Shown here in pieces: positions 1-48,892 of a DNA stretch of 48,892 nt. A program made the translations under genes and the position numbers. The notes below the pieces were generated by a model that saw nothing but the letters and a program-made list of their open reading frames with translations, did no database searches and was not told the origin of the DNA. The DNA comes from Planctomycetaceae bacterium (GTDB lineage Bacteria > Planctomycetota > UBA8742 > UBA2392 > JABWBM01): positions 1-48,892 of the forward strand of contig JABWBM010000001.1 in assembly GCA_013360495.1 (NCBI GenBank). The letters run 5' to 3'. The first letter of the stretch is position 1. Each line of letters opens with the position of its first letter.

Positions 1-908
1 AAGAAGAGCGTGACGAAGAAATCCTTCACGATGCCAACTTTGCTCACCACGTCGGTGCTGTAGGGCAAGGTCGCGATGCTCGCGCCTGCGATCAGCGCGC
101 CCATTTCCATCGACACAGAGATATGAAGATGAATGCCGATCATGTCGAAAATCGTTCCCATGTTGTTGCCGAGGAAGCCGATGCCGAAGCACCAGCCTGT
201 GGCCGCGACCAGCATCAGTTCAGGCACCTTGGCGATCCAATGGAAGGCGATCGGCAGCACGTACTTGGCGAGCAACACCGCGACAACGATCAGGATCGCC
301 GTGCCGAGAAAGGTCATCCCCACCGGGCCGAGTTGCAGGTCATCGAAGTTCGGCTGCACCGCCAGCACGACGATGGCCCAGATGTCCTGGAAGATCAGCA
401 CGCCGAGCGAGATGCGTCCGGCGACGGTGTCAAGCTGGTGCTTCTCCTGCATCAACTTCACGGCGATCAGCGTTGAGGACGCCGCAGCCGTAAAGCCCAC
501 GTAGATAGGTATGAGATTCGTTCCTCCGGGCGTGCCGGCCATCGCGCTCCAGCCGCTTGTGGCCAGCAGCCACGCGACACCGTAACCGAAGGCCACGCAG
601 AGCGGGAACTGGAGCAGCCCCGCGAGGATCAGCGTTTTACCGCTGGCCAGCAGCTTGCGTAAGTCGATCTCAAGGCCGATCACGAACAAGAGCAGGATCA
701 AGCCGAGGTTGGCGATCGTGTTGATGTTGTTGGTATCGGTGACGATTCCGCCCACTACGGGTCCAACGATAACGCCTGCCGCAAGAAACGCCGCGATATT
801 GGGAATCTTGAGGCGCGTGAAGATGACTGAAAGAACGCCCGCTGTCACAAGGCAGACGCCGATGTCTTGAACGAGTGGTGCAAGGCCGCCGCCGGAAAGA
901 ATGGTCAT
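1..908 (-). CDS. Cation:proton antiporter, CPA2/Kef-like Na+/H+ exchanger family (5' part only; gene runs off the left window edge)
   Basis: The minus-strand frame is open from ATG (908-906) to the window edge, with an upstream in-frame stop at 921-923. It is absent from the ORF track because it has no stop inside the window. Own translation: MTILSGGGLAPLVQDIGVCLVTAGVLSVIFTRLKIPNIAAFLAAGVIVGPVVGG...LGLILLLFVIGLEIDLRKLL... The product is multi-TM and carries the GP..G and LLF-IGLE-D signatures typical of CPA-family N-termini. Confidence 0.7.
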   Translation of the reverse strand, partial: MTILSGGGLAPLVQDIGVCLVTAGVLSVIFTRLKIPNIAAFLAAGVIVGPVVGGIVTDTNNINTIANLGLILLLFVIGLEIDLRKLLASGKTLILAGLLQFPLCVAFGYGVAWLLATSGWSAMAGTPGGTNLIPIYVGFTAAASSTLIAVKLMQEKHQLDTVAGRISLGVLIFQDIWAIVVLAVQPNFDDLQLGPVGMTFLGTAILIVVAVLLAKYVLPIAFHWIAKVPELMLVAATGWCFGIGFLGNNMGTIFDMIGIHLHISVSMEMGALIAGASIATLPYSTDVVSKVGIVKDFFVTLF

Positions 909-963
909 GGGTGTGTTCCGCTAACGAAGCATGGGTAAAGACCGATGGAATCTCGCCGCAATA

Positions 964-2806: not shown

Positions 2807-3745
2807 TTACGTCGTCGGACCTGCCCCGCCGATGGAAAGCAATCGCTCGATGCGCTTCTTCGCGGGCGGGTGCGTGCTGAACAGTTCCGACACCGACGTT
2901 CCTTTGAAGGGGTTCGAGATATACATGTGTGCCGTGCCGTGGTTGGCGCGGGCGAGTTTGTGGGGCGTGCCCGATATTTTTTGCAGCGCGCTGGCGAGTC
3001 CCGCCGGATTACGCGTGAACTGCGCCCCGCTCGCATCGGCCAAATATTCGCGTTGGCGCGAGATCGCCATCCGCACCAGTTGCGCGAAGATCGGCGCAAG
3101 GATCAAAAATACGATGCCAACCACCATCAGGACTGCCTGAGCCTGACCGCCGCCCCGGTCGTTGTTGCGCCGGCCCATGCCGCCCCAAAAGAGACCGTGC
3201 CGTGCCATATCGGAAATGATCGCCACCATGCCGACGAGGATGCCGACCACCGTGGCGAAGAGGATGTCGCGGTTCTTGATGTGCGCCATCTCGTGCGCGA
3301 TCACACCTTGGAGTTCCTCACGGTCGAGAATTTCCATGAGACCAGTAGTGACCGCGATACGCCCGTCTTCGGGCTTGCGGCCCGTGGCGAATGCGTTGGG
3401 CGACGGATCCTCGATCACATACACGCGTGGCATCGGAATACCGGCAGCGATCTTCATCTCCTCGACGACGTTATAGAGTTGGCGGAAGCGGGGGTGGTTG
3501 GGGTCGATTTCGCGCGCGCCGCTGATCTTGAGCACGAGGTCGGCACCGCCAAACCAGCTGAAGAGCGACATGATGATCGAGATCGCGCCTGCAATGCCAA
3601 GGCCGATAAAGGGGCCTTCCGGCCTGTCGCCAAAGAAGAAGAGGCCGAAGAAGTATCCGGCGGCGACGGCGATACCGACAATCACGCCGATCAAGAGCAG
3701 CGAGCGCCGCACATTGGAACCTTGAAGCTCATGAAACGTTGCCAT
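2807..3745 (-). CDS. htpX: Zinc metalloprotease HtpX (peptidase M48)
   Basis: It has the HEMAHIKNRD HExxH site, four hydrophobic segments and the C-terminal FSTHPPAKKRIERL motif typical of HtpX. The ATG is at 3745. Confidence 0.9.
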   Translation of the reverse strand: MATFHELQGSNVRRSLLLIGVIVGIAVAAGYFFGLFFFGDRPEGPFIGLGIAGAISIIMSLFSWFGGADLVLKISGAREIDPNHPRFRQLYNVVEEMKIAAGIPMPRVYVIEDPSPNAFATGRKPEDGRIAVTTGLMEILDREELQGVIAHEMAHIKNRDILFATVVGILVGMVAIISDMARHGLFWGGMGRRNNDRGGGQAQAVLMVVGIVFLILAPIFAQLVRMAISRQREYLADASGAQFTRNPAGLASALQKISGTPHKLARANHGTAHMYISNPFKGTSVSELFSTHPPAKKRIERLLSIGGAGPTT

Positions 3746-13856: not shown

Positions 13857-15404
13857 TCATGCTTTGGGCGGTAAAGGTTGAGTCATCCCGCGCAGACAGC
13901 CGTAGCCGCGTCCATGATGGGTTGCGAAGAACGAACGCGAGCGCTCGACAAGGTCACCTAGCTCGTGTTTGTCCGGGTTTGATTGTGCGAGGCGCAGAAC
14001 GTTTCGGTAGTGCATCATCCGCATCACGATGTAGTACAGCCTCGTTCCCTCGGCCCGGTCGAGCACTTCCTGTGTGTCGCGGATAAATCTGCGCGACGCG
14101 CCGAAATTACCCGATATGCGGTGGAGTTGCGCCGAAAGCAGGGGGCGCAGCAGGTCGATGTCGGCGTTCCGCGAGTCGAAAAGCCCCTGCCCATCGAATT
14201 CCTTCAAGAGAACACCCGGATTTGTCCGCTTGTTCGAACGAAGGAGCGCCAGCAGTCCCTCCGCGTACGCGGCAAAGAGCGGGCCAAGATGCATCTGTTG
14301 CTGTCGCGCGAGCGGGGCGAAATCCTTGAGAGCGAGCGTCAACGCGCCCTTGTCTTCGAGCCAGCATGCCCACACCAGCGGCACATGGGAATAGACGATG
14401 CGATAGCGCGCGCCCACGGAGTCGCAATGTTCAGGGAGTTGCCGGCAAAAGCTGTCAAAGGGCAATGTTCCGGCGTAGAGGTCGAGGACATCCAACATCG
14501 GGCGGTACGTACCCGCGCTTTCCTCGTCGAAGACCGAGAATGCCTGCCGCACGAGCGCCTGGGCTTCCCGCATGTCCCCCAACTCGAGGCTCAGGAGTCC
14601 GCTCATCAGCGCGACGCGACCGTAGGCCGGCTCATTCCGCATCGTCTCGAACAGAGCGAGAGCGGCATTGGCGAAACGCTTGGCCTCATAGCCGAGCCGC
14701 GCTCCACGCAGATTGTCGATCAGATAATGGAGATGGTCGAGAATCTCCGGGTCGGCGTAGTTGCGCGACGTCATCAAGCGAAGCACCAATCCACGGTAAA
14801 TCGCGGCCGCGCGATCCAGATTGCCGAGTGTGAATTCGTGATGGGCGTGGAGCCGGTCGAGCCGGACTTTGAGTTGCTCGTCGTCGCAGAACTCCGAAAT
14901 CTGCAACGCGCCGGCCAGCAGGCGCTTGGCGGCGTTGACGTCGTATTGATCGAAGGCGTGTTGGAGCTGCTCGAGCAATTGCGCGAGCACGGGGTTGGCG
15001 TCGGCGCTCAAGCGTTCGCGTGTCTCGCGCCACGCGAAAAGCGCGTCGTTGAGTTTTCGAAACACTTTCAGATGGTCTTTGCCCGCCAGCGCGCCGAGCC
15101 TCATGCGCGCGATGGCGTTCATTGATTGCACCAGTTCGAGCAGCGTCTCCGCGCGCTCGGTCTGGGACCAGCGCACGTCGGTCAAGTAGGGTTCTCCTTC
15201 GCCAAGCAGCAGCCACGCCGGGTTGACATCGAGTTCGTTCGCTAGTCCTGCGCAAAAATCGGCGGGCAGGCGCCGCCCTTTCAAATAGTAGTGGATGTTG
15301 GTGCGCGAGGTTTGGGTCGCGCGGGCGATGTCGGCTTGGGAGTGCCGCTTGAGCAACTCCTCGAAGCGCGAGCGGATGGCGTTGTCATGGGCCTTGATAT
15401 CCAT
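13857..15404 (-). CDS. XRE-family helix-turn-helix regulator with long TPR-like helical-repeat C-terminal domain
   Basis: The N-terminus reads RFEELLKRHSQADIARATQTSRTNIHYYLKGRRLPADFCAGLANELDVNPAWLLLGEG, an HTH_XRE pattern. The remaining ~440 aa are helical, with repeated G(N/D)xxxAxxxY/F-type TPR-like spacing (FTLGNLDRAAAIYRGL, LELGDMREAQALVRQAF, ISGNFGASRRFIRD). I prefer ATG 15404 to GTG 15425. Confidence 0.7.
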   Translation of the reverse strand: MDIKAHDNAIRSRFEELLKRHSQADIARATQTSRTNIHYYLKGRRLPADFCAGLANELDVNPAWLLLGEGEPYLTDVRWSQTERAETLLELVQSMNAIARMRLGALAGKDHLKVFRKLNDALFAWRETRERLSADANPVLAQLLEQLQHAFDQYDVNAAKRLLAGALQISEFCDDEQLKVRLDRLHAHHEFTLGNLDRAAAIYRGLVLRLMTSRNYADPEILDHLHYLIDNLRGARLGYEAKRFANAALALFETMRNEPAYGRVALMSGLLSLELGDMREAQALVRQAFSVFDEESAGTYRPMLDVLDLYAGTLPFDSFCRQLPEHCDSVGARYRIVYSHVPLVWACWLEDKGALTLALKDFAPLARQQQMHLGPLFAAYAEGLLALLRSNKRTNPGVLLKEFDGQGLFDSRNADIDLLRPLLSAQLHRISGNFGASRRFIRDTQEVLDRAEGTRLYYIVMRMMHYRNVLRLAQSNPDKHELGDLVERSRSFFATHHGRGYGCLRGMTQPLPPKA

Positions 15405-15465
15405 GGGCAAGACCTTCGACAGCACCCGTTCAATGTCGTTATATCGTTCTCTAATCGAAACGTAA

Positions 15466-15626: not shown

Positions 15627-17600
15627 ATGGCGAGAATCATGTTGGCAGCGATCGTGCCGATGTTGTGCGCGTGCGGCCTCTGGGCGCAAGGCGCGCTCAC
15701 GATCGAAACGACCGAACTCGACCCCGCCGTTATCGGCGTGCCCTACACCTCGTCACCGCTCCAGGCGTCAGGTGGGTCGGCCCCGTATACGTGGACGGCG
15801 ATGCCAAATTTATTTGCGCCCTGGGTTGCCGTCGACGTGACGCCCTCGGGCGACTCTGTCATCGTCGGGGCTCCGTCGAAACCGCTCCTACTTTCGGTTC
15901 CCGCCGATGCATTCTTCGAAGTCACCGTCACCGACAACTCCGTCCCGCCTCTCACCGTGTCGAAAACCATCTTCGTCAGCGTCAGCGAGGGGTTTACCTT
16001 CGGCTTCGACGCGCTCCCCGACGCCATCGTCGCGGAACCCTATTCCTTCGACATCGCCACCGAGGGAGGCGTCGGGGGAATCACCTTCACGCCGGTCTCG
16101 GTCTTGCCGCCATGGTTGACGCTTTCCGGTTCGACGCTGTCAGGAACGCCTGCCACGGTGAAAACCGAATCGTTCATCATCAAGGTTGTGGATAGTTCCA
16201 CTCCCCCCAAGACCATCCAGGCCAACATCTCCTTGAAGGTCATAAAAAAGCTGGTCGTCACCGGCGTGGACGAGCTTTTCGGTGTCGAGGGCGAGGCGCC
16301 GTCGTCCACGAAGCTCGTCACGAAGATCCTCTGGGGCGTAACACCCTATTCGGTCGAGGCGACCAATCTTCCGCCCGGCATTTCGCTCGACATCCCCGGC
16401 CCCTACGTTTACGGAGAGTCGAAAAGCGTCGTGGTGCTCGGGACGCTCGAGGAGGGCAGCGCCTCCCCTACGCCCTACAAGGTTTCCTGCACCGTCAGCG
16501 ACAGTTCCAACCCGCCGCAAGTCTTCGCCTTCAAAGCGGACTTCTTCGTCTACGACAAGCTGGAGCTGCCCGCGACCATCGAGTTCCCGGGCATCGTCCA
16601 AAACCAGTTCTTTGCAACCGATCCGTACTCCCTGACCGGCGGCACGGCGCCCTTCACTTTCGCACCGAGCGGTATGCCGCCGTCCATCAAGCTCGTTCAG
16701 GACGATGACACGACCTTTCACTTTCAGGGCACGGTCGATTCGAGCGTCAGCTTCGATCTCGTCGTGTCGGACTCCAGCAAACCCGCGCAGAAGGGAACCA
16801 TCGTCGTCGCCATTGACGCCTACGACAAGCTGCTGATCCTCACCAGCACGTTGCCCACCATCGGCGCCGGACAGGCATACGAGGTTGAACTGGTCGGAGC
16901 GGGCGGCACCGCGCCATATTTTTGGCAGACCGAAGGACTCCCCGCGGGTATCGAACTCGTGCAGGACGCGGACCAGTGGAAGCTCGCGGGCGTCGCATCC
17001 GATGCGGCCATCGGCGCGTACGCAGTATCGCTCACCGTCACGGACAGCGCCGACGATGGTGTCCAGAGCGCGCAAACCAAACTCGCGCTCATCGTGAGCG
17101 AGGCGAGCGAAACATCACCGCTCACGATGATCACCACCTTTCTGCCCCCGGCGACAACGGGCGAGCCTTATGTGGCGATGGTCGAGGCAAGCGGCGGAGC
17201 GAAGCCTTACGAGTGGTCGGTCATTGGCCTGCCCGAAGGTATCGAGTCGTATGTGGAGGACGATCGCCTGATCGTCGCCGGCACGCCCGAGGGCGAGGCC
17301 GCTACATTATACGTCAAGGTAACGGCGCGGGACGCATCGAACCCGCAGCAGTTCGCCGACGTCACGTACACCTTGTTCGTGAAGGCGGGCGAAGACGCAC
17401 CCGAAGTTCCCAGCGACACCGGTTTCACCGCCGCACCAGCGGACGTTCTTCTGGGCGCCGCAGCCGCCGGCTGTTCGCTCGCGGGCGACGGCGTGGGACA
17501 TTGTGTCCTCGTTGCGCTGCTGGCGCTCGTGGCCGGAATGCGAGTTTTCAAGCGTCTTGGCCGGACACGAACCGCGTTTGAACGGGCTTGCTGTCTTTGA
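15627..17600 (+). CDS. Exported surface protein A1 with multiple He_PIG-type (putative Ig / cadherin-like) repeats and an AGCS-TM-basic C-terminal tail
   Basis: GGGAGG lies 6 nt before the ATG and there is a signal peptide (...CGLWAQG). Repeats follow the pattern LPxxxxGxPYxxxxxAxGGxxPYxW...LPxGIxL...GTP...TVTDS. The C-terminus reads AAAGCSLAGDGVGHCVLVALLALVAGMRVFKRLGR. Confidence 0.8.
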   Translation: MARIMLAAIVPMLCACGLWAQGALTIETTELDPAVIGVPYTSSPLQASGGSAPYTWTAMPNLFAPWVAVDVTPSGDSVIVGAPSKPLLLSVPADAFFEVTVTDNSVPPLTVSKTIFVSVSEGFTFGFDALPDAIVAEPYSFDIATEGGVGGITFTPVSVLPPWLTLSGSTLSGTPATVKTESFIIKVVDSSTPPKTIQANISLKVIKKLVVTGVDELFGVEGEAPSSTKLVTKILWGVTPYSVEATNLPPGISLDIPGPYVYGESKSVVVLGTLEEGSASPTPYKVSCTVSDSSNPPQVFAFKADFFVYDKLELPATIEFPGIVQNQFFATDPYSLTGGTAPFTFAPSGMPPSIKLVQDDDTTFHFQGTVDSSVSFDLVVSDSSKPAQKGTIVVAIDAYDKLLILTSTLPTIGAGQAYEVELVGAGGTAPYFWQTEGLPAGIELVQDADQWKLAGVASDAAIGAYAVSLTVTDSADDGVQSAQTKLALIVSEASETSPLTMITTFLPPATTGEPYVAMVEASGGAKPYEWSVIGLPEGIESYVEDDRLIVAGTPEGEAATLYVKVTARDASNPQQFADVTYTLFVKAGEDAPEVPSDTGFTAAPADVLLGAAAAGCSLAGDGVGHCVLVALLALVAGMRVFKRLGRTRTAFERACCL

Positions 17601-17626
17601 AAGTGCCTGCTTTGAAAGGACGTGTT

Positions 17627-18586
17627 ATGAAAAGCGCGAAATATCTTGCCGGAGCGTTTGGGAGCGCCGCCTTTGTATTAGCGCTGGGCATTTCACAAAG
17701 CTTGAACATTCAATCCAGCGGCCTTCAGGCGCAGGAAGCCAGCGGCGGCGATGCAGGCACGCTGGCATCGGGCGGCGGCTCCAGCGGCTCGAAAACCGAA
17801 AAAACGGTAGACCCGCAGTTGTTTCGCTCCGTAAGCGACGACGGAGCGGATGCGCCCACAGGACGTGGTTTTTTGCGTATGCCGGCGAGTGAGCCGGTCG
17901 CAAGTTCGGCTCCGGAGCCCGAAACCGGCGAGCCTCCGGCGGAACCGTCGGAACCTGAAACGGAAAGCGGGGGCGCCCACCAATTTTTCGACGCGCCGGT
18001 GGCCGGCAAGTGCGTATTCGTCATCGACGTATCCTTGTCGATGAGCATAACCGACGTGGGCGCCGGCGAGGACTATGACGGCAACGTCGTCAGTAACCTT
18101 TCCCGCCTGATGCTGGTCAAGACGGAACTGATCAACTTTCTCAAACAAAGCGACGAGGGCGACTTCTTCGACATCGTCTGGCTCGCGGGGTCCTCAATTT
18201 GCGGACCCAACACGGACGTCTGGGCAGGAGAATTGGTGCAATGCACCGAGGAGAACCGCGAAGCGGCGATCGAAGCCGTGAAATCCCAAACGATGTGGTG
18301 GGGAACGCCGACGTGGAAGGCGTTACAGCGCGCATGTCTCGAGTATGAAGACGACCTGAGCGTGATGGTGCTGCTGACGGACGGCACGCCTTTCCCCATG
18401 GGAGAAGGTGAGTGGGGCGACTACTCCCACGTCAACGCCATCCACAACGATTTTCCCGGGTGGTTCGCCGGGAAGAAGGACAACGGTTGCAAGCTGATCG
18501 GCGTCCATGTGGGGAGTTGCCCCTACGCCGGAAGCTTCATGCAGGACTGGTGCGCCAGCAACGACGCGACATATGTCCACAAGTAG
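17627..18586 (+). CDS. Secreted von Willebrand factor A (vWA) domain protein B1
   Basis: It has a signal peptide (MKSAKYLAGAFGSAAFVLALG), a Gly/Ser-rich and acidic Pro-rich linker, the MIDAS motif VFVIDVSLSMS (DxSxS) and VMVLLTDG. I prefer ATG 17627 (AAAGGA upstream) to the track start 17588, which overlaps A1. Confidence 0.8.
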   Translation: MKSAKYLAGAFGSAAFVLALGISQSLNIQSSGLQAQEASGGDAGTLASGGGSSGSKTEKTVDPQLFRSVSDDGADAPTGRGFLRMPASEPVASSAPEPETGEPPAEPSEPETESGGAHQFFDAPVAGKCVFVIDVSLSMSITDVGAGEDYDGNVVSNLSRLMLVKTELINFLKQSDEGDFFDIVWLAGSSICGPNTDVWAGELVQCTEENREAAIEAVKSQTMWWGTPTWKALQRACLEYEDDLSVMVLLTDGTPFPMGEGEWGDYSHVNAIHNDFPGWFAGKKDNGCKLIGVHVGSCPYAGSFMQDWCASNDATYVHK

Positions 18587-18613
18587 CCGCACCGCCGTCG
18601 AAAGCGGCGATCG

Positions 18614-21600
18614 ATGACGAAAGGCTTTTCTATGGGCGCGCTCAAGTTCATGATTCTCCTTATCTTCTGTGCGAGCGGCCTTTTCGCTCAAGGCACGCTT
18701 ACCATCGAAACCGAGAAGCTTGAGCCCGCTGTCGTCGGCGTGCCGTACACATCGTCGCCGCTCAAGGTTTCCGGCGGGACTGCGCCGTACACCTGGTCGA
18801 TCAACGGCGCGGCGCAATCGCCGTGGGTGACGCTTCAAAAGGCAGGGGGCGAAACGGTGCTGACCGGCATGCCCGAGAAGCCGCCGGTTCTGTTTTGGGG
18901 GTACCCCGCTCTCTTGACTGTGACATTGGCCGTGACCGACAGTTCGTCGCCGCCGGGAAGCATGGTCGCAGCCGTATACCTTTCGATCAGCGAAGGGTTG
19001 GTTTTCGGTTTTGACGAACTGCCTACTCCGGTCGTCGACCAACCTTACAGCGTCTCGATCAACCCCATTGGCGGCGTCGAACCGTACACGATCTCTGTCA
19101 CGTCCACTTTGCCGCAATGGCTGACTTTTTCCGGCTCGACGTTAAGTGGAACGCCGCCCGAGGTTACGACCGGCGACGCGGTGTCGATCAATGTCACGGA
19201 CAGTTCGAGTCCCCCGAAAGTTATTCAGGCGAAATTCGGGCTCGCGGTGAAGAATAAGATTTCGGTTTTCAATATTGCCACGCTCTCGGGCTTTGAAGGC
19301 AAGCTGCCGTCTTCCGAAACAGTCGCAAACATCACGGGTGGACTCGCGCCATACACCATCGACGCGACAGGACTACCCGCTGGACTCTCCCTTTGGACGG
19401 TGCTTCCGGGGACAAAGTTTCCCGGGGGCGGTACGAGCCTCCCCTTAGGCGTTTGGACGCTGAACGTCGGAGGCGTCCTTGACCCTGGAAGCGGTCTGCC
19501 TGTACCCTATGTTGTCACCTATACCGTCACCGACAGCGCCAATCCGCCACAAACTGTAACCTTCGAGGCTGAATTCATCGTCTATGGGAAGCTCGATCTT
19601 CCTTCCGCCATTACTTTCGATGGTATGGTGACTGGAGAAGATTTTGAAACTGGCGTCTATACTTTCGACAGCGGTGGCTGGGCGCCCTTCACGTTGACGC
19701 CGGGCGGCATGCCCGGCGGCGTGACGCTCGTTCAGGACGATGGCGCGAACTTTCACTTCGAAGGCGTCATCGCGAAGGACGCCGCCTTTACCCTTGCCGT
19801 AGAAGACTCGAGTAACCCGCATCAGACGGGGAGTTTGACCATCATTCTCGATGCAGCTGATAAATTGTCGATCCTGACAGGCACGCTACCGCCTGCCATT
19901 GTCGGTGAAGCGTATGATGTCGCTCTCGCCATCAACGGCGGAATGGCGCCCTATGCGCTGGAGGCGCAAGGTCTGCCCGAAGACATCGAACTCGGCGAAG
20001 ACGCGGGACAATGGAAGCTCACGGGCAGCGCCTCCGACGCCGCCATCGGCGTGTATGCCCTATCCCTCACTGTTACTGACAGCGGCGCCGGCATCGTCCA
20101 AACCGTGCATACCAAAATCGCCCTCATGGTGAACAAGCCAGGCGATGGCTCGCCGCTCTTCCTTTCGACGACCTTTCTCCCCGTCGGGACGACGGACGAG
20201 CAGTACGCCGCAACCGTCGAGGCGAGCGGCGGAGTCGCGCCATATGAATGGTCCGTCGTCGGCTTGCCGTTGGGCATCGAAACGTATGTTGAAGACGATC
20301 GCTTGATCCTCACGGGAACGCCGGAAATCGCCACTCCCATCGCGCATGTTGAAATCGTGGTGCGCGACGCGGACGACCCGCAGCAGGCGGCGAGTGCGAT
20401 CTACCCATTGGTCATAAAAACGAGCGAAAGCGCCGCTCAATCGGACCTCGCATTCACTTCCGGAAACGCCCTGATGAACGCTGCCGCAGCAGCAGGCTGT
20501 TCGATGTCAGGCGGGTCGTCGGGCGGAATTGCCATGACGCTGCTTGCGTTCATAGTCGCGGCGGCCTGTCTCTACGAGCGCGGCCGGAAACCCCGTAGCG
20601 CCCCGATTCATCGTGGCGGATCTCTTTGGAAACTTTCGCCTCGGCCTGGCTCGGTGCGCAGCACCTTGCCTGATCGGCCTCGCGCCCTCAAGCGAGACCG
20701 ATCCTCGTGTGAAAGCACATGTATGAAAGCTGCACAATTTCTCACGGCAATGGTTGGAGTCGCGGCTTTTGCGCTCGCATCCGGCGCATCCTATGGCTTT
20801 GATTTCCCATCCGATCGCTTGCTCGCCGAACACATTCTCGCTGCCGGCGATTCGACGGGCGGAAGTGGCGGCGCCTCGAAAGGAACCGGCGACGGCAAGG
20901 GGTCTGATACCGGTGGCGGAAAAGATTCTGGCTCTGGTGGTGGCAAAAGCTCGGGCGGTGGCGGCGGCTATGGCGCGCCAGCGCAGGGAACCTCGAAATC
21001 GGAGGAACCCCTCGATCCACTATTGTTCCGCTCCGCGAACAGCGACGGAGCGGACGCGCCCACAGGACGCGGCATTCTGCGTATGCCGTCAAGCGACGGC
21101 TCGGGCAATAACGCGCCACCGACAGAGGGCAGCGAGCCTCCAGTCGAACCGTCCGAGCCGGAAATCGAGGGCGGCGTTGACGACCCTCCCTTTTTTGATG
21201 AGCCGATCGAAGGCAAAGCGGTCTTCATCATCGATATGTCTTTGTCCATGAAAGTCACCGACGTCGGCGGCGGCGAGGATTACGACGGCAACGTGGTAGG
21301 CAGCCTCACGCGCTTGATGCTCGTCAAAACCGAACTGATCAACTTTTTGAAGACCATCGACGACAACTTCTGGTTCGACATCGTCTGGCTCGCCGGCACC
21401 TCCGAAGGTCAGGGCGGATCTGCCGGCGATCATTTTGGAGGTTACAGCCAATCGCCCAACACCGACGTGTGGCAGGGCGAATTGGTGCAATGCACCGACG
21501 ACATTCGCCAGGCCGCCATTGAAGAGGTCAAAAACAAGGGGACATGGCCGCTCACGCCCACGTGGAAGGCTCTCTGGCGCGGATGCCAGGAATACCCGGA

Positions 21601-21835
21601 CGACCTCGACATCATGGTGCTGCTCACCGACGGAGCGCCGATTCCAGCGGGCGCGGGCGAATGGGGATCGTCGAATCACATGCAAGCGATCCTGAACGAT
21701 TTTCCCGGCTGGTTTGCGCCGAAGAAGGCAGGAGGCTGCAAGCTGATCGGCATTCATGTCGGTCAGAACGCAAGCGCCGGATCGTTCATGCAGGATTTCT
21801 GCGCGCAGAACGACGGCAAATACATTCATAAATAA
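18614..21835 (+). CDS. A2-B2: second He_PIG-repeat surface protein fused in frame to a second vWA protein (single 1073-codon frame)
   Basis: Residues 1 to ~660 parallel A1, including the signal peptide, the repeats and the tail AAAAGCSMSGGSSGGIAMTLLAFIVAAACLYERGRKPRS. No stop follows. After a ~45-codon linker, the frame continues through an internal ATG (20723) into a full B1 paralogue. Confidence 0.75.
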   Translation: MTKGFSMGALKFMILLIFCASGLFAQGTLTIETEKLEPAVVGVPYTSSPLKVSGGTAPYTWSINGAAQSPWVTLQKAGGETVLTGMPEKPPVLFWGYPALLTVTLAVTDSSSPPGSMVAAVYLSISEGLVFGFDELPTPVVDQPYSVSINPIGGVEPYTISVTSTLPQWLTFSGSTLSGTPPEVTTGDAVSINVTDSSSPPKVIQAKFGLAVKNKISVFNIATLSGFEGKLPSSETVANITGGLAPYTIDATGLPAGLSLWTVLPGTKFPGGGTSLPLGVWTLNVGGVLDPGSGLPVPYVVTYTVTDSANPPQTVTFEAEFIVYGKLDLPSAITFDGMVTGEDFETGVYTFDSGGWAPFTLTPGGMPGGVTLVQDDGANFHFEGVIAKDAAFTLAVEDSSNPHQTGSLTIILDAADKLSILTGTLPPAIVGEAYDVALAINGGMAPYALEAQGLPEDIELGEDAGQWKLTGSASDAAIGVYALSLTVTDSGAGIVQTVHTKIALMVNKPGDGSPLFLSTTFLPVGTTDEQYAATVEASGGVAPYEWSVVGLPLGIETYVEDDRLILTGTPEIATPIAHVEIVVRDADDPQQAASAIYPLVIKTSESAAQSDLAFTSGNALMNAAAAAGCSMSGGSSGGIAMTLLAFIVAAACLYERGRKPRSAPIHRGGSLWKLSPRPGSVRSTLPDRPRALKRDRSSCESTCMKAAQFLTAMVGVAAFALASGASYGFDFPSDRLLAEHILAAGDSTGGSGGASKGTGDGKGSDTGGGKDSGSGGGKSSGGGGGYGAPAQGTSKSEEPLDPLLFRSANSDGADAPTGRGILRMPSSDGSGNNAPPTEGSEPPVEPSEPEIEGGVDDPPFFDEPIEGKAVFIIDMSLSMKVTDVGGGEDYDGNVVGSLTRLMLVKTELINFLKTIDDNFWFDIVWLAGTSEGQGGSAGDHFGGYSQSPNTDVWQGELVQCTDDIRQAAIEEVKNKGTWPLTPTWKALWRGCQEYPDDLDIMVLLTDGAPIPAGAGEWGSSNHMQAILNDFPGWFAPKKAGGCKLIGIHVGQNASAGSFMQDFCAQNDGKYIHK
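20723..21835 (+). CDS. Possible independently initiated vWA protein B2 (internal start within the A2-B2 frame)
   Basis: From ATG 20723 the product MKAAQFLTAMVGVAAFALASG... aligns with B1 from its Met1, including its own signal peptide, the DPLLFRS..DGADAPTGRG.LRMP motif, the MIDAS motif FIIDMSLSMK and LLTDG. The upstream sequence TGAAAGCACATGTATGAAAGC is homologous to the B1 upstream sequence TGAAAGGACGTGTTATGAAAAGC. Confidence 0.45.
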   Translation: MKAAQFLTAMVGVAAFALASGASYGFDFPSDRLLAEHILAAGDSTGGSGGASKGTGDGKGSDTGGGKDSGSGGGKSSGGGGGYGAPAQGTSKSEEPLDPLLFRSANSDGADAPTGRGILRMPSSDGSGNNAPPTEGSEPPVEPSEPEIEGGVDDPPFFDEPIEGKAVFIIDMSLSMKVTDVGGGEDYDGNVVGSLTRLMLVKTELINFLKTIDDNFWFDIVWLAGTSEGQGGSAGDHFGGYSQSPNTDVWQGELVQCTDDIRQAAIEEVKNKGTWPLTPTWKALWRGCQEYPDDLDIMVLLTDGAPIPAGAGEWGSSNHMQAILNDFPGWFAPKKAGGCKLIGIHVGQNASAGSFMQDFCAQNDGKYIHK

Positions 21836-21906
21836 CAGCATTATTCACCATCCGGCGGGGCGGTCCCGCGGGTGATTCTCGTTGTGAGTATTTCAGGAGG
21901 AAAGTG

Positions 21907-22038
21907 ATGAAGCATCTGAATCTCGAAACTCTGTCCGGCGTTATTGGTGGAGCGGCTACAGTGTACACCGGCACAATTACATTCACCGGCTCCCCGACGA
22001 CATCCGGCTGCTTGAAGCGCAATGGACTGCCTTGCTAG
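21907..22038 (+). CDS. Unannotated 43-aa precursor peptide with double-glycine-type leader (bacteriocin/pheromone-like)
   Basis: AGGAGG (21895-21900) lies 6 nt before the ATG. The translation is MKHLNLETLSGVIGG / AATVYTGTITFTGSPTTSGCLKRNGLPC followed by a stop. The leader matches L(-12), L(-7), V(-4) and GG(-2,-1) of the LSxxELxxIxGG consensus. A strong terminator follows 30 nt downstream. The ORF is below the ORF-track length cutoff. Confidence 0.6.
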   Translation: MKHLNLETLSGVIGGAATVYTGTITFTGSPTTSGCLKRNGLPC

Positions 22039-22068
22039 TTCCGGTAAATGCACAGGCTCAACACCACA

Positions 22069-22097
22069 GGAGAGGGCTAGCCCTCTCCTTTTCTCTT
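22069..22097 (+). terminator. Rho-independent terminator after the small ORF
   Basis: GGAGAGGG-CTAG-CCCTCTCC forms a perfect 8-bp GC-rich stem and is followed by TTTTCTCTT. An A-rich tract on the other side may give weak bidirectional function for the convergent M48 gene. Confidence 0.75.
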
Positions 22098-22115
22098 GTG
22101 AGTGCACGACAAACG

Positions 22116-23711
22116 CTACTCGTCTTTTCGGGGCGGAACTGCCTGATTCTCCACCGGTTTGTGACCGTCGTGGGGTGCTGGACCGTCCGGTGCGTCGTCA
22201 TGGTTGTCGTGATGGCTGTCATCGTGCTCCGACGCAAAGCCATGCAGTGCGCGATACAGCCCGTCGCGGTCGCGCCACTTGACGATGATACGCTCGACAT
22301 CTTCGCCGCCGCCTGATTTGCGCTTTTTGGCAGGCTCAAGTTCCGGCTCGGGGGCCGCCGGATCGGCAAAGCCCATACCGACGATCCTCTGGCGCAGGGA
22401 CGTTGCGTCGTCGCTGTCGGGCGGCAACGCTTCGTATACTTCAAGATAGTATTGGCAAGCCCGCTGTCTGTCGCCCATCGCTTCCGCGCACATGCCCGCC
22501 CGGAACTTGGCCATCAGGTTTTCCGGCGCGACCTTTAATGACGATTCGAAGAGTTTCAACGCCTCGCGATGGCGGCCAAGGGACATCAACGCCGTGCCGT
22601 AAAGATAGTCTTCATAAAAATCAGCTCCGTCCAGACTGCGTGCGCGCTCTAAATACTCGACTGCCTGCTTGTGCTCCTCGAGTACGAGATGCGTTTCGCC
22701 CGCCTTCCTCTGGATCAAGCCGTGGGCGGGAAGCATGCTAGCCGCGCGCTTGTAATGCCCGAGCGCGCTGCGATAGCGCTTTTCCGCGCCTGACTCGTCG
22801 CCATTCTCGAACATCGAGGCTGCATCGGCGGATTCCTTGTCGCCTTTGTCCACGAGAGCATAGGCCTCGGAGGTCTTGTTGACGCTGACCATGGCCGAAT
22901 CGAAGGACTCCTTACCCTTCACGTAACCGTTATCGGGCGTGGCCGTGGCGTATTTTTCCTTTTTGTATCCAGAGAGCGTGACGATACGATTGCCCGGCGA
23001 AGGGTGCGTTGAGAGGAAATCCGGCCCGCCACCGCCGCCGCTCACCCGTTCGAGAGTGCGCATGAGATTGATGATGCCGTCGGCTTCGTACTTTGCCTTG
23101 ACCGAGAACTCCATGCCCCATTCATCGGCCTCGGATTCGTTGTCGCGCGAATATTTCAGCAGATAGAGGTTGGCCGCGACGCCGCTGACGGCGGCGATCC
23201 ACTGATAATCCTCAGGCAGCGAAACGGCCAACACCGACACCGAAAGCACCACGAGCAGGTTCGTCGACATGGCGCGAGCGCCGTGCCGCAAAAATACGTG
23301 CGACGCCTCGTGACCGAGCAGGCCCGCCAGTTCAGCCTCGGACTTCATCTCGTTCAATATGCCGCGCGTGACGAAAACATGTCCGCCCGGAAGCGCAAAC
23401 GCGTTTACCAGCGAGTCGTTGACGACATAAAACTGAAAGTCCCAATCGGGAAACTCGTCGTGGCCCTTCTTCTTGATATGGCGGCGGCCCTCGCTCACCA
23501 CCTTCCGGCCGACGCCCTCGACGTAGCTCTTGAGCGCGGGGTCGGGGTATTCGCCTCCAAGCTGGGCGAGGATTGGGGCGACGGCCTCGTCGCCCATGGC
23601 TTTTTCCTCGGCGTAGCTATAGACGACGAACTCCGACTTGCCGGTGATCGGGTTGGTCTGGCACGCGGCGAGCGTGAGAGCCAATGCAGCGAAGAAAATG
23701 CGAATGGTCAT
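22116..23711 (-). CDS. M48-family zinc metalloprotease lipoprotein with C-terminal TPR repeats (BepA/YfgC-like) and His-rich tail
   Basis: It has the lipobox LALTLAAC, the HExxH site HEASHVFLRHG, TPR-like helices in the second half and the C-terminal tail HGFASEHDDSHHDNHDDAPDGPAPHDGH. Confidence 0.8.
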   Translation of the reverse strand: MTIRIFFAALALTLAACQTNPITGKSEFVVYSYAEEKAMGDEAVAPILAQLGGEYPDPALKSYVEGVGRKVVSEGRRHIKKKGHDEFPDWDFQFYVVNDSLVNAFALPGGHVFVTRGILNEMKSEAELAGLLGHEASHVFLRHGARAMSTNLLVVLSVSVLAVSLPEDYQWIAAVSGVAANLYLLKYSRDNESEADEWGMEFSVKAKYEADGIINLMRTLERVSGGGGGPDFLSTHPSPGNRIVTLSGYKKEKYATATPDNGYVKGKESFDSAMVSVNKTSEAYALVDKGDKESADAASMFENGDESGAEKRYRSALGHYKRAASMLPAHGLIQRKAGETHLVLEEHKQAVEYLERARSLDGADFYEDYLYGTALMSLGRHREALKLFESSLKVAPENLMAKFRAGMCAEAMGDRQRACQYYLEVYEALPPDSDDATSLRQRIVGMGFADPAAPEPELEPAKKRKSGGGEDVERIIVKWRDRDGLYRALHGFASEHDDSHHDNHDDAPDGPAPHDGHKPVENQAVPPRKDE

Positions 23712-35181: not shown

Positions 35182-35305
35182 ACGCCAGCGATCCAGACTA
35201 CCACGTGTCATTTTGTAAGATTCGTCTTTCTTTCGTTGAAACCGCCGGGTATACTTCCTCCAGTCCGAAATTCGTCGTAGCATGCGGTCTCACGGAGGAG
35301 GAACC

Positions 35306-36625
35306 ATGCCTGTTCAAGCAGTCGGTCAGTCCGCCTTAGCCGCGCAGCTTCTCGGCGTGCTCACCAAGACCAACAACTCCTTCGCGACGTCGGCGCAGGA
35401 AGTGTCGAGCGGGGAAAAATCCATCGGCAATATCAGCATCGGCAACCTCTTCGCCGGGTTAAAGGCGCTCTCCGACCTCGGCGGGTTTCAGGCGCAGAGC
35501 AGCGGTCTTCAGATTAGCCAAAGTTCCGCCGCATTCGCCCAAAGCAATCTCTCGCTCGCCAACGACACGGTCAATAACATTCAGTCGCTGACCGCCCAGC
35601 TCAACAGCGGTTTCGGCGACGACGCGACCAACGCAGCGATCTCAAGCGCCATCAGCGCCGAAGTGCAATCGCTTGGCGGCTTGCTCGGCCCGAACCTCAC
35701 CCCCTTCGGCGGTGGTGGCGAAATCCAGCTGACCGACGATTCCGCCGACATCCTCACCGGCGAAGTTGTCACGCAGATCAACGGCGCGTCGTCGGAGAAC
35801 TTCGACGTCGACGTGACGATCAACTCCGTTGGTGCCGCCGCGACTACGACGCTCACAACGCCAGGCACGGCCAACTCTTTTACGCTCAATGGCGTGACCA
35901 TCAACTATGACGGAAGCGGTGACGCCGCTCTCGCTGCAGCGATCAACGCCACCACCGAACAGACAGGTGTAACAGCCACTGCCGGCGCGGGGTCCGTGAC
36001 ACTTGACCAGGAAACCGCAGGCACCGCGAACACCATCAGCATCCAAGACGTTCAAGGCGGCCAATTCGGCGCCGGCGAAACCGGCATCTTCGCCGGAACC
36101 GACGCCAGTGTCACCGTCAACAGCGTGACCGTCACCGGCAACGGCAACGATATTTCTTTCACAAACGCGGGCGGTGTCACCGGATCGTTCACCATTGACG
36201 ATACTGTCGCCGCAGCCGGCGATACCACGACGTTCACCACTCAGGGCGGCGGCACGCAGCTTTATACGGGGAGCGGCACCGTTACCGTCGCAAGCCCAGG
36301 CTTGAGCAGCCTGCAAAACTTCGCCAACGACCCCGCCTCGTTCACGTTTGACGAGGCGAGCACGATTATTGGCGGCTTTCAGGACTCGCTCCTCGCCACG
36401 CAGTCGCAGATCGCCGGCATCCAAGGCACACAGAATTCCGCGCAGAACCAATTCCAGACGCAGATCAGTTCTCTGAGCGTCGCGAGCAACGATCTCCTCG
36501 GCGCGGACTTCGCCTCCGGCGTGACGTCGCTGTTGAGTTCGGTGAACCAGCAGCAGCTCCAACTCGCGCTGATCGCCAAGAATAACGCGCTGGGCGGCGG
36601 CCTGCTGAAACTGCTCAAACCCTAG
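35306..36625 (+). CDS. Highly divergent flagellin / hook-associated (FlgL)-like protein, orphan
   Basis: GGAGGAGG lies 4 nt before ATG 35306. The N-terminus (..VSSGEKS..GFQAQSSGLQISQSSAAFAQSNL..NNIQSLTAQ) and C-terminus (LLGADFASGVTSLLSSVNQQQLQLALIAKNNALGGGLLKLL) parallel the flagellin N and C helices. The central FTLNGVTINYDGSGDAALAAAINATTEQTGV resembles the flagellin hook IN motif. Confidence 0.6.
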   Translation: MPVQAVGQSALAAQLLGVLTKTNNSFATSAQEVSSGEKSIGNISIGNLFAGLKALSDLGGFQAQSSGLQISQSSAAFAQSNLSLANDTVNNIQSLTAQLNSGFGDDATNAAISSAISAEVQSLGGLLGPNLTPFGGGGEIQLTDDSADILTGEVVTQINGASSENFDVDVTINSVGAAATTTLTTPGTANSFTLNGVTINYDGSGDAALAAAINATTEQTGVTATAGAGSVTLDQETAGTANTISIQDVQGGQFGAGETGIFAGTDASVTVNSVTVTGNGNDISFTNAGGVTGSFTIDDTVAAAGDTTTFTTQGGGTQLYTGSGTVTVASPGLSSLQNFANDPASFTFDEASTIIGGFQDSLLATQSQIAGIQGTQNSAQNQFQTQISSLSVASNDLLGADFASGVTSLLSSVNQQQLQLALIAKNNALGGGLLKLLKP

Positions 36626-48700: not shown

Positions 48701-48892
48701 GGACAAGCGCAAATCCGTGCGGCATTACGAACCTCGACTTCCTCGATGCTGCGGGACAAGACGTGCAAGGTGCCGGACAAATGACTCATTGGACCGATGG
48801 CACCATCGAAAGTCGCGTTCCCGATAAAGCCGTGGTCTTTCAGGCGACGTTCAGCAATGGCAAGACGGTCACGATGCCGCTGAAGTTTGACG
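45766..48892 (+). CDS. Large membrane-anchored protein with many carboxypeptidase-regulatory-like (CarboxypepD_reg) beta-sandwich repeats (3' end beyond window)
   Basis: The frame is open from ATG 45766 to the window edge, so it is not in the track. The N-terminal TM reads SVAIFVALLLLVLIWFIAF. Repeats follow the pattern G.V.D..GNPVA.A.V......TD..G.F.F..L.PG.Y (for example LSGTVTDTDGNPVAKAEVCTQAISVWTDAQGRFEFPDLAPGVF and IFGKVVEAGTGNPVAGVSVSL...SDREGTFRFTGLPTGFY). Confidence 0.7.
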   Translation, partial: MPKPHNALRSVAIFVALLLLVLIWFIAFDAPVESVAPDGALQDQPSSDAKNQEAGAPPAATTENPQSKRNANEEKPPQSGDEPSPIVNQADENGRTLTITGRVVGLDKNPIEGCTTVFFRKREAIPESLVQSGAPIGNDASCDARASTTEEGVFAFTFHLSGDDVRQLDDANWYDGDYYAFVYVWKEGYVTRESDCNADAVKNAVLAAEQAPVIRLQDIVLSRAGEIFGKVVEAGTGNPVAGVSVSLGGMTVIPESDAYGTYPWFSMSDREGTFRFTGLPTGFYMVQPPSGSTGYVKQEFRLDEGARFGPVTFQVECPNIVRFRLQTEQRMPITPPVEFVFLSETSRWLDAEPYKRPATLRNLRENTVSINGARYCGDLLFGNAPADSEGVYSASPRFAGMSMAIFAEGFLPIFVALRDEGIPVMDMGVFEVRKGRALSGTVTDTDGNPVAKAEVCTQAISVWTDAQGRFEFPDLAPGVFDLEAGLSGYEDFIQPVNVGDETELAIILQPAQSGTVVVTVCYDNQVPVEHEDIEIELDHVDSGMPSSPSDGGPGSMTFDELPPGNYLARVTRPFTGDVLEQAIDVAPGDVKRVAFLLPAGGRIFGEIADPSGAPLPGMAIRCYSSRNVACGASAGTSGAYEIRGLPPGTYYLLGECWAPHMTVNACFAHEFTLASPGSELRHDIDIAELPAIDFDLAIAGEHDAIRLAYLRSIAAESLARFPYVFEFCLEMAGSNGRATIYGLPAGAYAANFYGNARYPNATFEETITLPTGYRHFLIERNFVVGSLAGKVGLPPTLNSTDRSSWYVIATDVAAKFPEEHRCAINDDGTYRFDTLAAGTYGVQARIQDFVSREHVVNIGGATTLDLSVASGGYVALRFQLPEGVTLASNDDIASVLDSLSMASGSGLGHSLSFYDIQCRREGDRWIPLYPFAPGAYSFELDPDREYDTTSTSGSVEIVAGTVSTIDIAVTKARRLKLKWTSANPCGITNLDFLDAAGQDVQGAGQMTHWTDGTIESRVPDKAVVFQATFSNGKTVTMPLKFD

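What the first reader, a model, noticed from the sequence alone, without database searches (positions are those of the whole stretch)
21907..22038. Hidden 43-codon ORF encoding a double-glycine-leader peptide with a Thr/Gly-rich, two-Cys core
This ORF is not in the ORF track because it is too short. A perfect AGGAGG lies 6 nt before the ATG. The product is MKHLNLETLSGVIGG-AATVYTGTITFTGSPTTSGCLKRNGLPC. The leader has Leu at -12, Leu at -7, Val at -4 and Gly-Gly at -2/-1, with a Glu at -9, which closely matches the class II bacteriocin / competence-pheromone leader LSxxELxxIxGG. The predicted 28-aa core is rich in Thr, Ser and Gly and has Cys35 and Cys43 seven residues apart, which could form a disulfide loop or thioether. 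The stop is followed after 30 nt by an 8-bp GC stem and a T-run. No modification enzyme or PCAT exporter is adjacent. The neighbour on the other strand is an M48/TPR protease.
Basis: partly seen in the sequence, partly recalled or inferred. Interest (0 to 1): 0.72.

Follow-up and report, generated by a model that had tools for sequence, protein, structure and literature searches.

The report
Orphan small gene with double-glycine leader
A 43-codon gene with strong start and stop signals probably exists here, and its first 15 residues fit the rules for a "double-glycine" export signal. It has no relatives or export machinery in view, so it remains an unproven candidate secreted peptide, not a discovery.

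Summary
ORF 21907-22038 (+) encodes MKHLNLETLSGVIGG|AATVYTGTITFTGSPTTSGCLKRNGLPC. It has AGGAGG 6 nt before the ATG and a 9-bp GC hairpin plus T-run 29 nt after the stop, and it sits between convergent genes.

It is probably a real gene (~0.8). It has the best Shine-Dalgarno site in the window. Its codon score beats 97% of spurious ORFs and is the best of the six frames. No RNA family or unusual fold explains the region.

[quoted passage not shown] It fits a published class II microcin screening pattern and shares 7 of 15 residues with the colicin V leader. A loose version of the motif arises about 1.5 times per window by chance, so the motif only counts together with the gene signals.

There are no homologues among ~15 billion proteins and no Pfam or NCBIfam hit. 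The 48.9 kb window holds no PCAT, immunity gene or modification enzyme. The organism is a clonal, isolated Planctomycetota-like lineage, so conservation cannot be tested.

Verdict: plausible orphan double-glycine peptide (~0.45). Modest interest.

The parts
21895..21900 (+). Shine-Dalgarno sequence AGGAGG, 6 nt upstream of the ATG
   Evidence: AGGAGG occurs 12 times on both strands of the window. Four are followed by a start codon at 3-10 nt. Two of those are a real gene start (12765-) or a probable one (35296+), one is this site, and one is an antisense chance hit.
21907..21951 (+). Codons 1-15: putative double-glycine leader MKHLNLETLSGVIGG
   Evidence: Hydrophobic residues sit at -15/-12/-7/-4 and GG at -2/-1. 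A position-specific scoring matrix built from 22 remembered leaders gives 12.9 bits, reached by only 4 of 73,706 six-frame positions. It shares 7 of 15 residues with the CvaC leader, whose sequence was verified (comparison).
21952..22035 (+). Codons 16-43: predicted 28-aa core AATVYTGTITFTGSPTTSGCLKRNGLPC (2818 Da, pI 8.9, 7 Thr, 4 Gly), with Cys35 and C-terminal Cys43
   Evidence: The AlphaFold2 single-sequence model is low confidence (pLDDT 49) and suggests a beta-hairpin at residues 16-27.
22036..22038 (+). Stop codon TAG
22068..22099 (+). Intrinsic-terminator-like hairpin (9-bp stem, 6 GC pairs, CTAG loop) with a T-rich tail on the + strand only
   Evidence: The hairpin is present in both the minimum-energy and the centroid fold. 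On the - strand it is followed by CCTGTGGTG, with no T-run.
21849..21874 (+). GC-rich hairpin 14 nt after the stop of the upstream 1073-aa gene, followed by AUUCUCGUUGUG. It may be a weak terminator or an RNA processing/stability element between the operon and the small ORF.
   Evidence: It was not flagged by the terminator scan. No sigma-70-like promoter was found between it and the ORF.
15627..21835 (+). Context only: upstream same-strand genes. These are an Ig-repeat (He_PIG) protein of 657 aa, a VWA protein of 319-332 aa, and a 1073-aa ORF that is a fused tandem duplicate of the first two. The small ORF lies 71 nt downstream. No functional link has been shown.
22116..23711 (-). Context only: convergent M48 metalloprotease with TPR repeats (BepA-like). 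There is no reason to link it to the peptide.

Best explanation
The ORF is a genuine, translated small gene. It is probably transcribed by read-through from the upstream Ig/VWA operon and ends at its own intrinsic terminator. Its 43-aa product is a double-glycine (GG) type precursor. [quoted passage not shown] Cleavage after Gly14-Gly15 during export would release a 28-aa, mildly cationic, Thr/Gly-rich peptide (2.8 kDa). Its two cysteines could close a C-terminal nine-residue disulfide loop (CLKRNGLPC) once outside the cytoplasm. The exported peptide would act as a small bacteriocin/microcin-like antagonist or as a signalling peptide.

Shown: the ORF, the Shine-Dalgarno site, the terminator, the codon bias and the motif match. 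Inferred: translation, cleavage, export, the disulfide and the biological activity.
For: Evidence for a real gene:
- It has the strongest Shine-Dalgarno site in the window at ideal spacing to an ATG.
- Its codon log-odds score is 0.233 per codon. That is the best of the six frames, lies within the range of real genes (15th percentile), and is reached by only 3.1% of 358 spurious 30-80-aa ORFs.
- It fills a 280-nt gap between convergent genes and is followed 29 nt later by a + strand terminator.
- A gene caller called it independently on 3 public contigs.
- No Rfam family, tRNA or unusual RNA fold offers another explanation (z = -0.10).

Evidence for the leader:
- All four hydrophobic recognition positions and the GG are present, as defined experimentally in PMC7018657.
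- The strict rule occurs 3 times in 97,780 six-frame positions, and only here at a start codon.
- It is the only one of 633 ATG-initiated 30-150-aa ORFs that matches the published microcin/pediocin signal pattern of PMC12219008.
- The 15-aa length and the M-[RK]-x-L-x-L-x-x-L-x-x-V-x-G-G pattern mirror the colicin V leader, with 7 of 15 identical.
- Orphan GG peptides without a nearby PCAT are documented (PMC7018657).
Against: - There is no homologue among 5.8 billion clustered or 1.84 billion representative proteins. The only hits are repeat-inflated matches to long repetitive proteins.
- Pfam and NCBIfam, which include curated bacteriocin and leader models, give no hit at E<=10.
- The 48.9 kb window has no PCAT, membrane-fusion protein, immunity-like small membrane protein or modification enzyme.
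- A loose form of the motif arises about 1.5 times per window in simulated sequence, so the motif is weak on its own.
- The leader scores 12.9 bits against 22-40 bits for the known leaders. Those are self-scores, because they trained the matrix.
- The Gly/Thr/Ser-rich composition runs straight across the proposed cleavage site and resembles beta-strand repeat sequence.
- Gene callers skipped the ORF on 10 of 13 identical contigs.
- The 28-aa core is much smaller than class II microcins.
Confidence: 0.45

Rival explanations
1. It is a real small protein, but the double-glycine resemblance is coincidental. The 43-aa product is not cleaved or exported by a PCAT. It acts in some unrelated way, for example as an accessory to the upstream Ig/VWA surface-protein operon or as a cytoplasmic small protein.
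For: The gene signals are the same as for the best explanation. The ORF lies 71 nt downstream of the Ig/VWA operon on the same strand, with no detectable promoter of its own. The window has no transporter or immunity gene. Curated leader models give no hit. Composition is continuous across the 'GG' site, with TLSGVIGGAAT resembling the TLSGVISGAGT of beta-strand (PATR) repeats. Loose GG motifs are common by chance.
Against: The strict rule aligned exactly to Met1 has a per-position frequency of about 3e-5 in this genome's own sequence. That is improbable for any one given small gene. No alternative function is suggested by any homology or domain.
Confidence: 0.3
2. It is not a gene. It is a chance ORF in the 3' untranslated/intergenic region shared by two convergent transcription units. 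The AGGAGG is fortuitous, and the hairpin simply terminates the upstream operon.
For: In 60% GC DNA, 43-codon ORFs are very common (one search lists 122 ORFs of 30 aa or more in 10 kb). Gene callers omitted the ORF on 10 of 13 identical contigs. GC3 is 0.605 against 0.74 in confirmed genes. No homologue exists anywhere. AGGAGG followed by a start codon also occurs once by chance, antisense inside a gene at 13418.
Against: AGGAGG occurs only 12 times in 97.8 kb of both strands, yet here it sits at ideal spacing from an ATG in one of the few intergenic gaps. The codon score is the best of six frames and in the top 3% of spurious ORFs. Without the ORF, the operon would have an unexplained 230-nt gap between its stop codon and its terminator.
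Confidence: 0.17
3. It is a precursor of a modified peptide (a RiPP). Candidates are a lanthipeptide, a glycocin-like S/O-glycosylated peptide or a radical-SAM thioether peptide. The modifying enzymes would be encoded elsewhere, acting on the Thr/Ser-rich core and the two Cys, with the GG leader removed by a LanT-type PCAT.
For: The core has 7 Thr, 2 Ser and 2 Cys, including a C-terminal Cys. From general knowledge, class II lanthipeptides and glycocins use GG-type leaders, and some precursors (prochlorosins) lie far from their synthetase.
Against: The 48.9 kb window contains no LanM/LanB/LanC, glycosyltransferase or radical-SAM gene. From general knowledge, a 15-aa leader is short for recognition by known lanthipeptide synthetases. 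There is no match to NHLP, Nif11 or other precursor families in NCBIfam.
Confidence: 0.05

Closest known systems
Class IIa microcins of Gram-negative bacteria (prototype microcin V / colicin V, CvaC)
   Same: The signal is 15 residues with the same skeleton. CvaC is MRTLTLNELDSVSGG and this ORF is MKHLNLETLSGVIGG, with 7 of 15 identical; the CvaC sequence was verified at 100% against annotated cvaC. It ends in Gly-Gly and fits the published screening pattern (PMC12219008). The core is Gly-rich and gene-encoded, with two Cys forming a potential disulfide loop at the extreme C-terminus. The producer appears to be a double-membrane bacterium.
   Different: The core is 28 aa (2.8 kDa), against about 60-90 aa (5-10 kDa). 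No cvaA/cvaB-like exporter or cvi-like immunity gene is adjacent or anywhere in the 48.9 kb. There is no detectable sequence homology to any microcin. The host lineage is Planctomycetota-like, not Proteobacteria.
Double-glycine peptide pheromones and small class II bacteriocins of Gram-positive bacteria (ComC/CSP, BlpC, plantaricin A, lactococcin G)
   Same: They share a GG leader with hydrophobic residues at -15/-12/-7/-4, recognised by the PCAT peptidase domain (PMC7018657). The mature size range is 17-40 aa. Orphan GG peptides encoded away from their transporter are known (PMC7018657).
   Different: Those leaders are usually 18-24 aa and richer in charged residues, with Glu at -8 rather than -9. 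Their loci normally carry a histidine kinase/response regulator, an immunity gene or a PCAT. None of these is present here.
Bacteroidetocins (Bacteroidetes class II microcin-like peptides)
   Same: As described in PMC12219008, they have a 15-aa double-glycine signal, are small proteins (<100 aa), and come from a non-proteobacterial Gram-negative phylum.
   Different: Bacteroidetocins are encoded next to the PCAT they require, form a recognisable sequence family, and have proven activity. None of this holds here.
Class II lanthipeptide precursors such as prochlorosins
   Same: They have GG/GA-type cleavage and a Ser/Thr/Cys-containing core, and their precursor genes can be scattered far from the synthetase (general knowledge).
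   Different: Their leaders are long (NHLP/Nif11-type, 60 aa or more) and match curated families. This leader is 15 aa with no NCBIfam hit, and no LanM gene is in view.

Membership tests
Double-glycine (GG) leader peptides / PCAT substrates | N-terminal signal of about 15-30 aa ending in Gly-Gly, Gly-Ala or Gly-Ser | tested here: met
   MKHLNLETLSGVIGG, with GG at residues 14-15.
Double-glycine (GG) leader peptides / PCAT substrates | Hydrophobic residues at -4, -7, -12 and -15 relative to the cleavage site (PMC7018657) | tested here: met
   V-4, L-7, L-12 and M-15. The strict rule occurs 3 times in 97,780 six-frame positions. A loose version occurs about 1.55 times per simulated window.
Double-glycine (GG) leader peptides / PCAT substrates | A cognate C39-peptidase ABC transporter (PCAT) in the genome | not testable with these tools
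   None lies in the 48.9 kb window, partial end genes included. The rest of the genome (MAG GCA_023150505.1) could not be retrieved.
Double-glycine (GG) leader peptides / PCAT substrates | Match to curated leader or bacteriocin profile models | tested here: not met
   No Pfam or NCBIfam family at E<=10. HMMER's speed filters can drop very short weak matches.
Double-glycine (GG) leader peptides / PCAT substrates | Cleavage after GG and export of the core | not testable with these tools
   This needs secretion or cleavage assays, or peptidomics.
Class II microcins | Signal matching <M[R/KEQI]x[IL]x9G[GAS] (PMC12219008) | tested here: met
   M-K-H-L-x9-G-G. It is the only hit among 633 ATG-initiated 30-150-aa ORFs in the window.
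Class II microcins | Mature protein of about 5-10 kDa | tested here: not met
   The predicted core is 28 aa, 2818 Da.
Class II microcins | Gene cluster with PCAT, membrane-fusion protein and an immunity gene | tested here: not met
   Neighbours are Ig/VWA surface proteins and an M48 protease. No small membrane-protein ORF accompanies it in the 280-nt gap.
Class II microcins | Sequence homology to a verified microcin | tested here: not met
   Exhaustive phmmer found only repeat-protein artefacts. A tblastn search of 72,556 plasmids found nothing.
Lanthipeptide / other RiPP precursor | Tailoring enzyme (LanM, LanB/C, radical SAM, glycosyltransferase) associated with the precursor | tested here: not met
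   None in the window. A genome-wide search was not possible.
PATR (autotransporter-associated beta-strand) repeat | Match to Pfam PF12951 | tested here: not met
   The peptide gives no hit at E<=10, whereas the look-alike protein P0005 matches PATR at 1.4e-14. Pairwise stretches score only 20-25 bits.
Flp/Tad pilin | G/XXXXEY processing motif followed by a hydrophobic stretch of about 20 residues | tested here: not met
   The sequence after GG is AATVYTGTITFTGS: no Glu-Tyr and no hydrophobic segment (motif from general knowledge).

The most novel reading that the evidence does not exclude
The peptide could be a secreted signal rather than a toxin. In this reading it is a double-glycine-processed 28-aa pheromone, encoded as the last cistron of a duplicated Ig/VWA surface-protein operon. 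That operon is transcribed divergently from a 522-aa XRE-HTH protein with a long TPR-like helical domain, an architecture reminiscent of the peptide-binding RRNPP regulators. This would be a peptide quorum-sensing circuit controlling adhesion in an uncultured Planctomycetota-like lineage, where none is known.
Probability: 0.05. Interest if true: 0.7.

Novelty: new member of a known kind. Interest (0 to 1): 0.32.

Why it matters
If confirmed, it would extend double-glycine/PCAT-exported peptides (microcin-like antagonists or pheromones) into a deeply branching, uncultured Planctomycetota-like lineage. It would also give a very small (28-aa), Thr/Gly-rich, disulfide-looped cargo with no relatives. 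That fits recent claims that such peptides are far more widespread and diverse than annotation shows (PMC12219008). In practice it illustrates how such genes are missed: the same sequence was called as a gene on only 3 of 13 identical public contigs. As it stands, this is one unverified candidate in one clonal organism, so its immediate value is as a target for a cheap secretion or cleavage assay.

Tried and rejected
- **Homology searches.** The word-index search found only the peptide itself. Exhaustive phmmer over 1.84 billion representatives found four long repeat proteins whose E-values are inflated by 6-12 repeated weak stretches of 20-25 bits each. I rejected these as homologues.
- **PATR-repeat remnant.** The resemblance of TLSGVIGGAAT...TFTG to PATR repeats in P0005 is real but weak, and the Pfam PATR model does not match the peptide. 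Rejected.
- **Remnant of the adjacent tandem duplication.** The peptide has no significant similarity to genes 1-3; shuffled controls score as well. The duplicated unit ends before the ORF. Rejected.
- **Paralogues in the window.** The only hit was CLNSNGLPC at 47641-47615, inside a spurious frame. This is chance.
- **Comparative genomics.**
  - The nearest M48 orthologues are 41-52% identical, with no synteny.
  - The 1073-aa neighbour has only Ig-domain-level relatives, and no relative was found in JGI metagenomes.
  - All 16 contigs recovered for this locus (3, 13) are 100% identical to the window.
  - A selection test is therefore impossible.
- **Leader-only DNA pattern (LETLSGVIGG) in JGI metagenomes.** It gave 3 chance hits inside large proteins.
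- **Structured RNA.** There is no Rfam hit, no tRNA and no excess folding.
- **Flp pilin.** This was suggested by the VWA neighbours and the 'GG AATVY' sequence, but there is no EY motif and no hydrophobic stretch. Rejected.
- **AlphaFold2.** The models of the peptide (pLDDT 49) and of the HTH regulator (pLDDT 46) are too poor to use. Foldseek on the regulator model gives only generic TPR/Rap matches with TM-scores of 0.2-0.4.
- **Right end of the window.** The apparently ORF-free stretch is one long ORF running off the edge.

Full report
**Observation.** Window 21907-22038 (+) translates to MKHLNLETLSGVIGGAATVYTGTITFTGSPTTSGCLKRNGLPC*. AGGAGG lies at 21895-21900, 6 nt before the ATG. A hairpin with a 9-bp stem (6 GC pairs, CTAG loop) at 22068-22089 is followed by TTTTCTCTTGT. 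It starts 29 nt after the stop and has a T-tail on the + strand only. The ORF occupies most of a 280-nt gap. On one side is a 1073-aa He_PIG/VWA gene ending at 21835 (+). On the other is a convergent M48+TPR (BepA-like) protease gene at 22116-23711 (-).

**Is it a gene?**
- *Length.* ORF length carries no weight at 60% GC. A 10-kb stretch holds 122 ORFs of 30 aa or more.
- *Translation start.* AGGAGG occurs only 12 times on both strands of the window. Four copies are followed by a start codon at 3-10 nt. One is the real start of the gene at 12750 (-). One is a likely true start at 35306. One is this ORF. One is an antisense chance hit. About a quarter of the confirmed genes have a recognisable but weaker Shine-Dalgarno site, so the organism uses this kind of initiation.
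- *Codon usage.* A codon log-odds model trained on 31 Pfam-supported genes gives this frame 0.233 per codon, counted without the stop codon. It is the best of the six frames. It falls at the 15th percentile of 43-codon windows from real genes, and only 3.1% of 358 spurious 30-80-aa ORFs reach it.
- *Other explanations.* Rfam, tRNA and folding analyses give no RNA-based explanation (z = -0.10).
- *Gene callers.* The ORF was called as a protein on three public contigs. It was left uncalled on ten other contigs that are 100% identical in sequence. Automated callers therefore find it borderline.
- *Transcription.* A GC-rich hairpin at 21849-21874 sits between the upstream stop and the Shine-Dalgarno site, and no sigma-70-like promoter was found. 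Read-through from the operon is the simplest route to transcription.
- *Estimate.* I put the probability that it is translated at about 0.8.

**The leader.**
- *Recognition positions.* PCAT peptidase domains recognise hydrophobic residues at -4, -7, -12 and -15 plus the GG (PMC7018657). Here these are V, L, L, M and GG, and the -15 residue is the initiator Met.
- *Published pattern.* The peptide fits the screening pattern used for class II microcins and pediocin-type signals, <M[KEQI]x[IL]x9G[GAS] (PMC12219008). It is the only hit among 633 ATG-initiated 30-150-aa ORFs in the window.
- *Colicin V.* It shares 7 of 15 residues, ungapped, with the colicin V leader. I confirmed my remembered CvaC sequence at 100% identity against annotated plasmid genes.
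- *Rarity.* A scoring matrix built from 22 remembered leaders gives 12.9 bits, reached by 4 of 73,706 six-frame positions. The strict hydrophobic+GG rule occurs 3 times in 97,780 positions.
- *Caveat.* The motif alone is weak. With any start codon, a G[GAS] ending and a flexible leader length, second-order Markov simulations of the window give 1.55 hits per window. The real window has two other spurious loci.
- *Conclusion.* The argument rests on the motif coinciding with independent gene signals at a single intergenic ORF.

**What is missing.**
- *No family.* The word-index search found only the peptide itself. An exhaustive phmmer search over representatives of ~15 billion proteins found only four long repeat proteins. 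Each matched stretch scores 20-25 bits, and their E-values are repeat-inflated. One of them is a PATR-repeat protein, but the peptide does not match Pfam PATR.
- *No curated match.* Pfam and NCBIfam give nothing at E<=10.
- *No leader relatives.* A leader-only DNA pattern found three chance hits inside large proteins in JGI metagenomes. The plasmid collection has no match.
- *No partner genes.* The whole window, including the partial genes at its ends, holds no C39/ABC exporter, membrane-fusion protein, small immunity-like membrane protein, LanM/LanB, radical-SAM enzyme or glycosyltransferase.
- *No relatives for comparison.*
  - The organism is isolated. The closest M48 orthologues are 41-52% identical, are mostly labelled Planctomycetes, and lack synteny.
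  - The adjacent 1073-aa protein has only Ig-domain-level relatives.
  - Every contig carrying the locus is 100% identical to the window. These come from 13 or more SRA runs and NCBI MAG GCA_023150505.1.
  - Purifying selection therefore cannot be tested, and the rest of the genome could not be searched for a PCAT.

**Context.** The upstream genes are a tandem duplication. Region 15660-18513 matches 18662-21762 at 72-76% nucleotide identity. Residues 14-663 of the 1073-aa ORF are 49% identical to the 657-aa Ig-repeat protein. Residues 704-1073 are 51% identical to the VWA protein. The small ORF lies outside the duplicated unit and shows no similarity to these proteins. Divergent from the operon is a 522-aa protein with an XRE-type HTH and an all-helical remainder. 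Low-confidence modelling and Foldseek point only to generic TPR/Rap-like repeats. This is the sole basis for the speculative signalling reading.

**Interpretation.** The most likely reading (~0.45) is a genuine orphan double-glycine precursor. A PCAT encoded elsewhere would cleave it after Gly15 and export it. The product would be a 2.8-kDa, mildly cationic (pI 8.9), Thr/Gly-rich peptide with a possible C-terminal Cys35-Cys43 loop. Orphan GG peptides are documented (PMC7018657).

The rivals are:
- a real small protein whose N-terminus matches by coincidence (~0.30);
- no gene at all (~0.17);
- a RiPP precursor modified by distant enzymes (~0.05).

In function it most resembles class IIa microcins such as colicin V, and small Gram-positive GG pheromones and bacteriocins. 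It fails the microcin membership tests for size, gene neighbourhood and homology, so it should not be filed as a microcin.

**Verdict.** If true, it is a new member of a known kind. Interest is modest (0.32). The candidate is plausible and cheap to test, but it is a single motif-based call in one clonal, poorly sampled organism.

Noticed in passing
window 15627-21835 (+): This is a tandem duplication of an Ig-repeat (He_PIG) gene plus a VWA gene, at 72-76% nucleotide identity. In the second copy the two genes are fused into one 1073-aa ORF through an Arg/Ser/Pro-rich linker. An internal Met704 followed by a signal-like segment could still start a separate VWA protein.
   Followed up: partly
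window 17420-17600 and 20480-20620 (+): The C-terminus of the 657-aa Ig protein, and the matching internal segment of the 1073-aa ORF, carry 'AAAAGCS..G' followed by a hydrophobic helix and a basic cluster. This tripartite layout looks like a C-terminal sorting signal (it recalls MYXO-CTERM from memory). It matches no NCBIfam model and could be an undescribed sorting signal.
   Followed up: no
window 13857-15425 (-): A 522-aa protein with an N-terminal XRE-type HTH and about 440 aa of helical, TPR-like repeats is transcribed divergently from the Ig/VWA operon. The PDB sequence search found nothing useful. The AlphaFold2 model is poor (pLDDT 46). Foldseek gives weak generic TPR/Rap hits.
   Followed up: partly
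window 35282-36625 (+): GGAGGAGG at about 35293-35301, followed by an ATG at 35306, suggests that the true start of this 447-aa ORF (weak Flagellin_IN motif) is 35306 rather than the first ATG at 35282.
   Followed up: no
window 21849-21874 (+): A GC-rich hairpin of about 10 bp lies 14 nt after the stop of the 1073-aa gene and is followed by AUUCUCGUUGUG. It may be a weak terminator or an RNA-processing/stability element that separates operon expression from small-ORF expression.
   Followed up: partly
whole window; loci L001-L003 and L011-L020: The locus is 100% identical at the nucleotide level across contigs from at least 13 SRA runs and NCBI MAG GCA_023150505.1 (JAKLKV010000169.1). This implies one clonal population sampled repeatedly. 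The nearest other organisms are only 41-52% identical in the M48 protease, so the lineage is poorly sampled.
   Followed up: partly
window 46400-48892 (+) and 1-920 (-): Both window ends are occupied by long ORFs that run off the edge, so the ORF lister does not show them. On the right is an ORF of more than 830 aa whose N-terminal region looked to me like a carboxypeptidase-regulatory-like domain; it was not searched against any family library. On the left is a membrane protein of more than 306 aa that looks like a cation/H+ antiporter, next to a TrkA-N channel gene.
   Followed up: partly
window 2807-3745 (-) and 22116-23711 (-): The window holds two M48 metalloproteases: a 312-aa HtpX-like one and the 531-aa BepA-like TPR-containing one next to the finding.
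   Followed up: no
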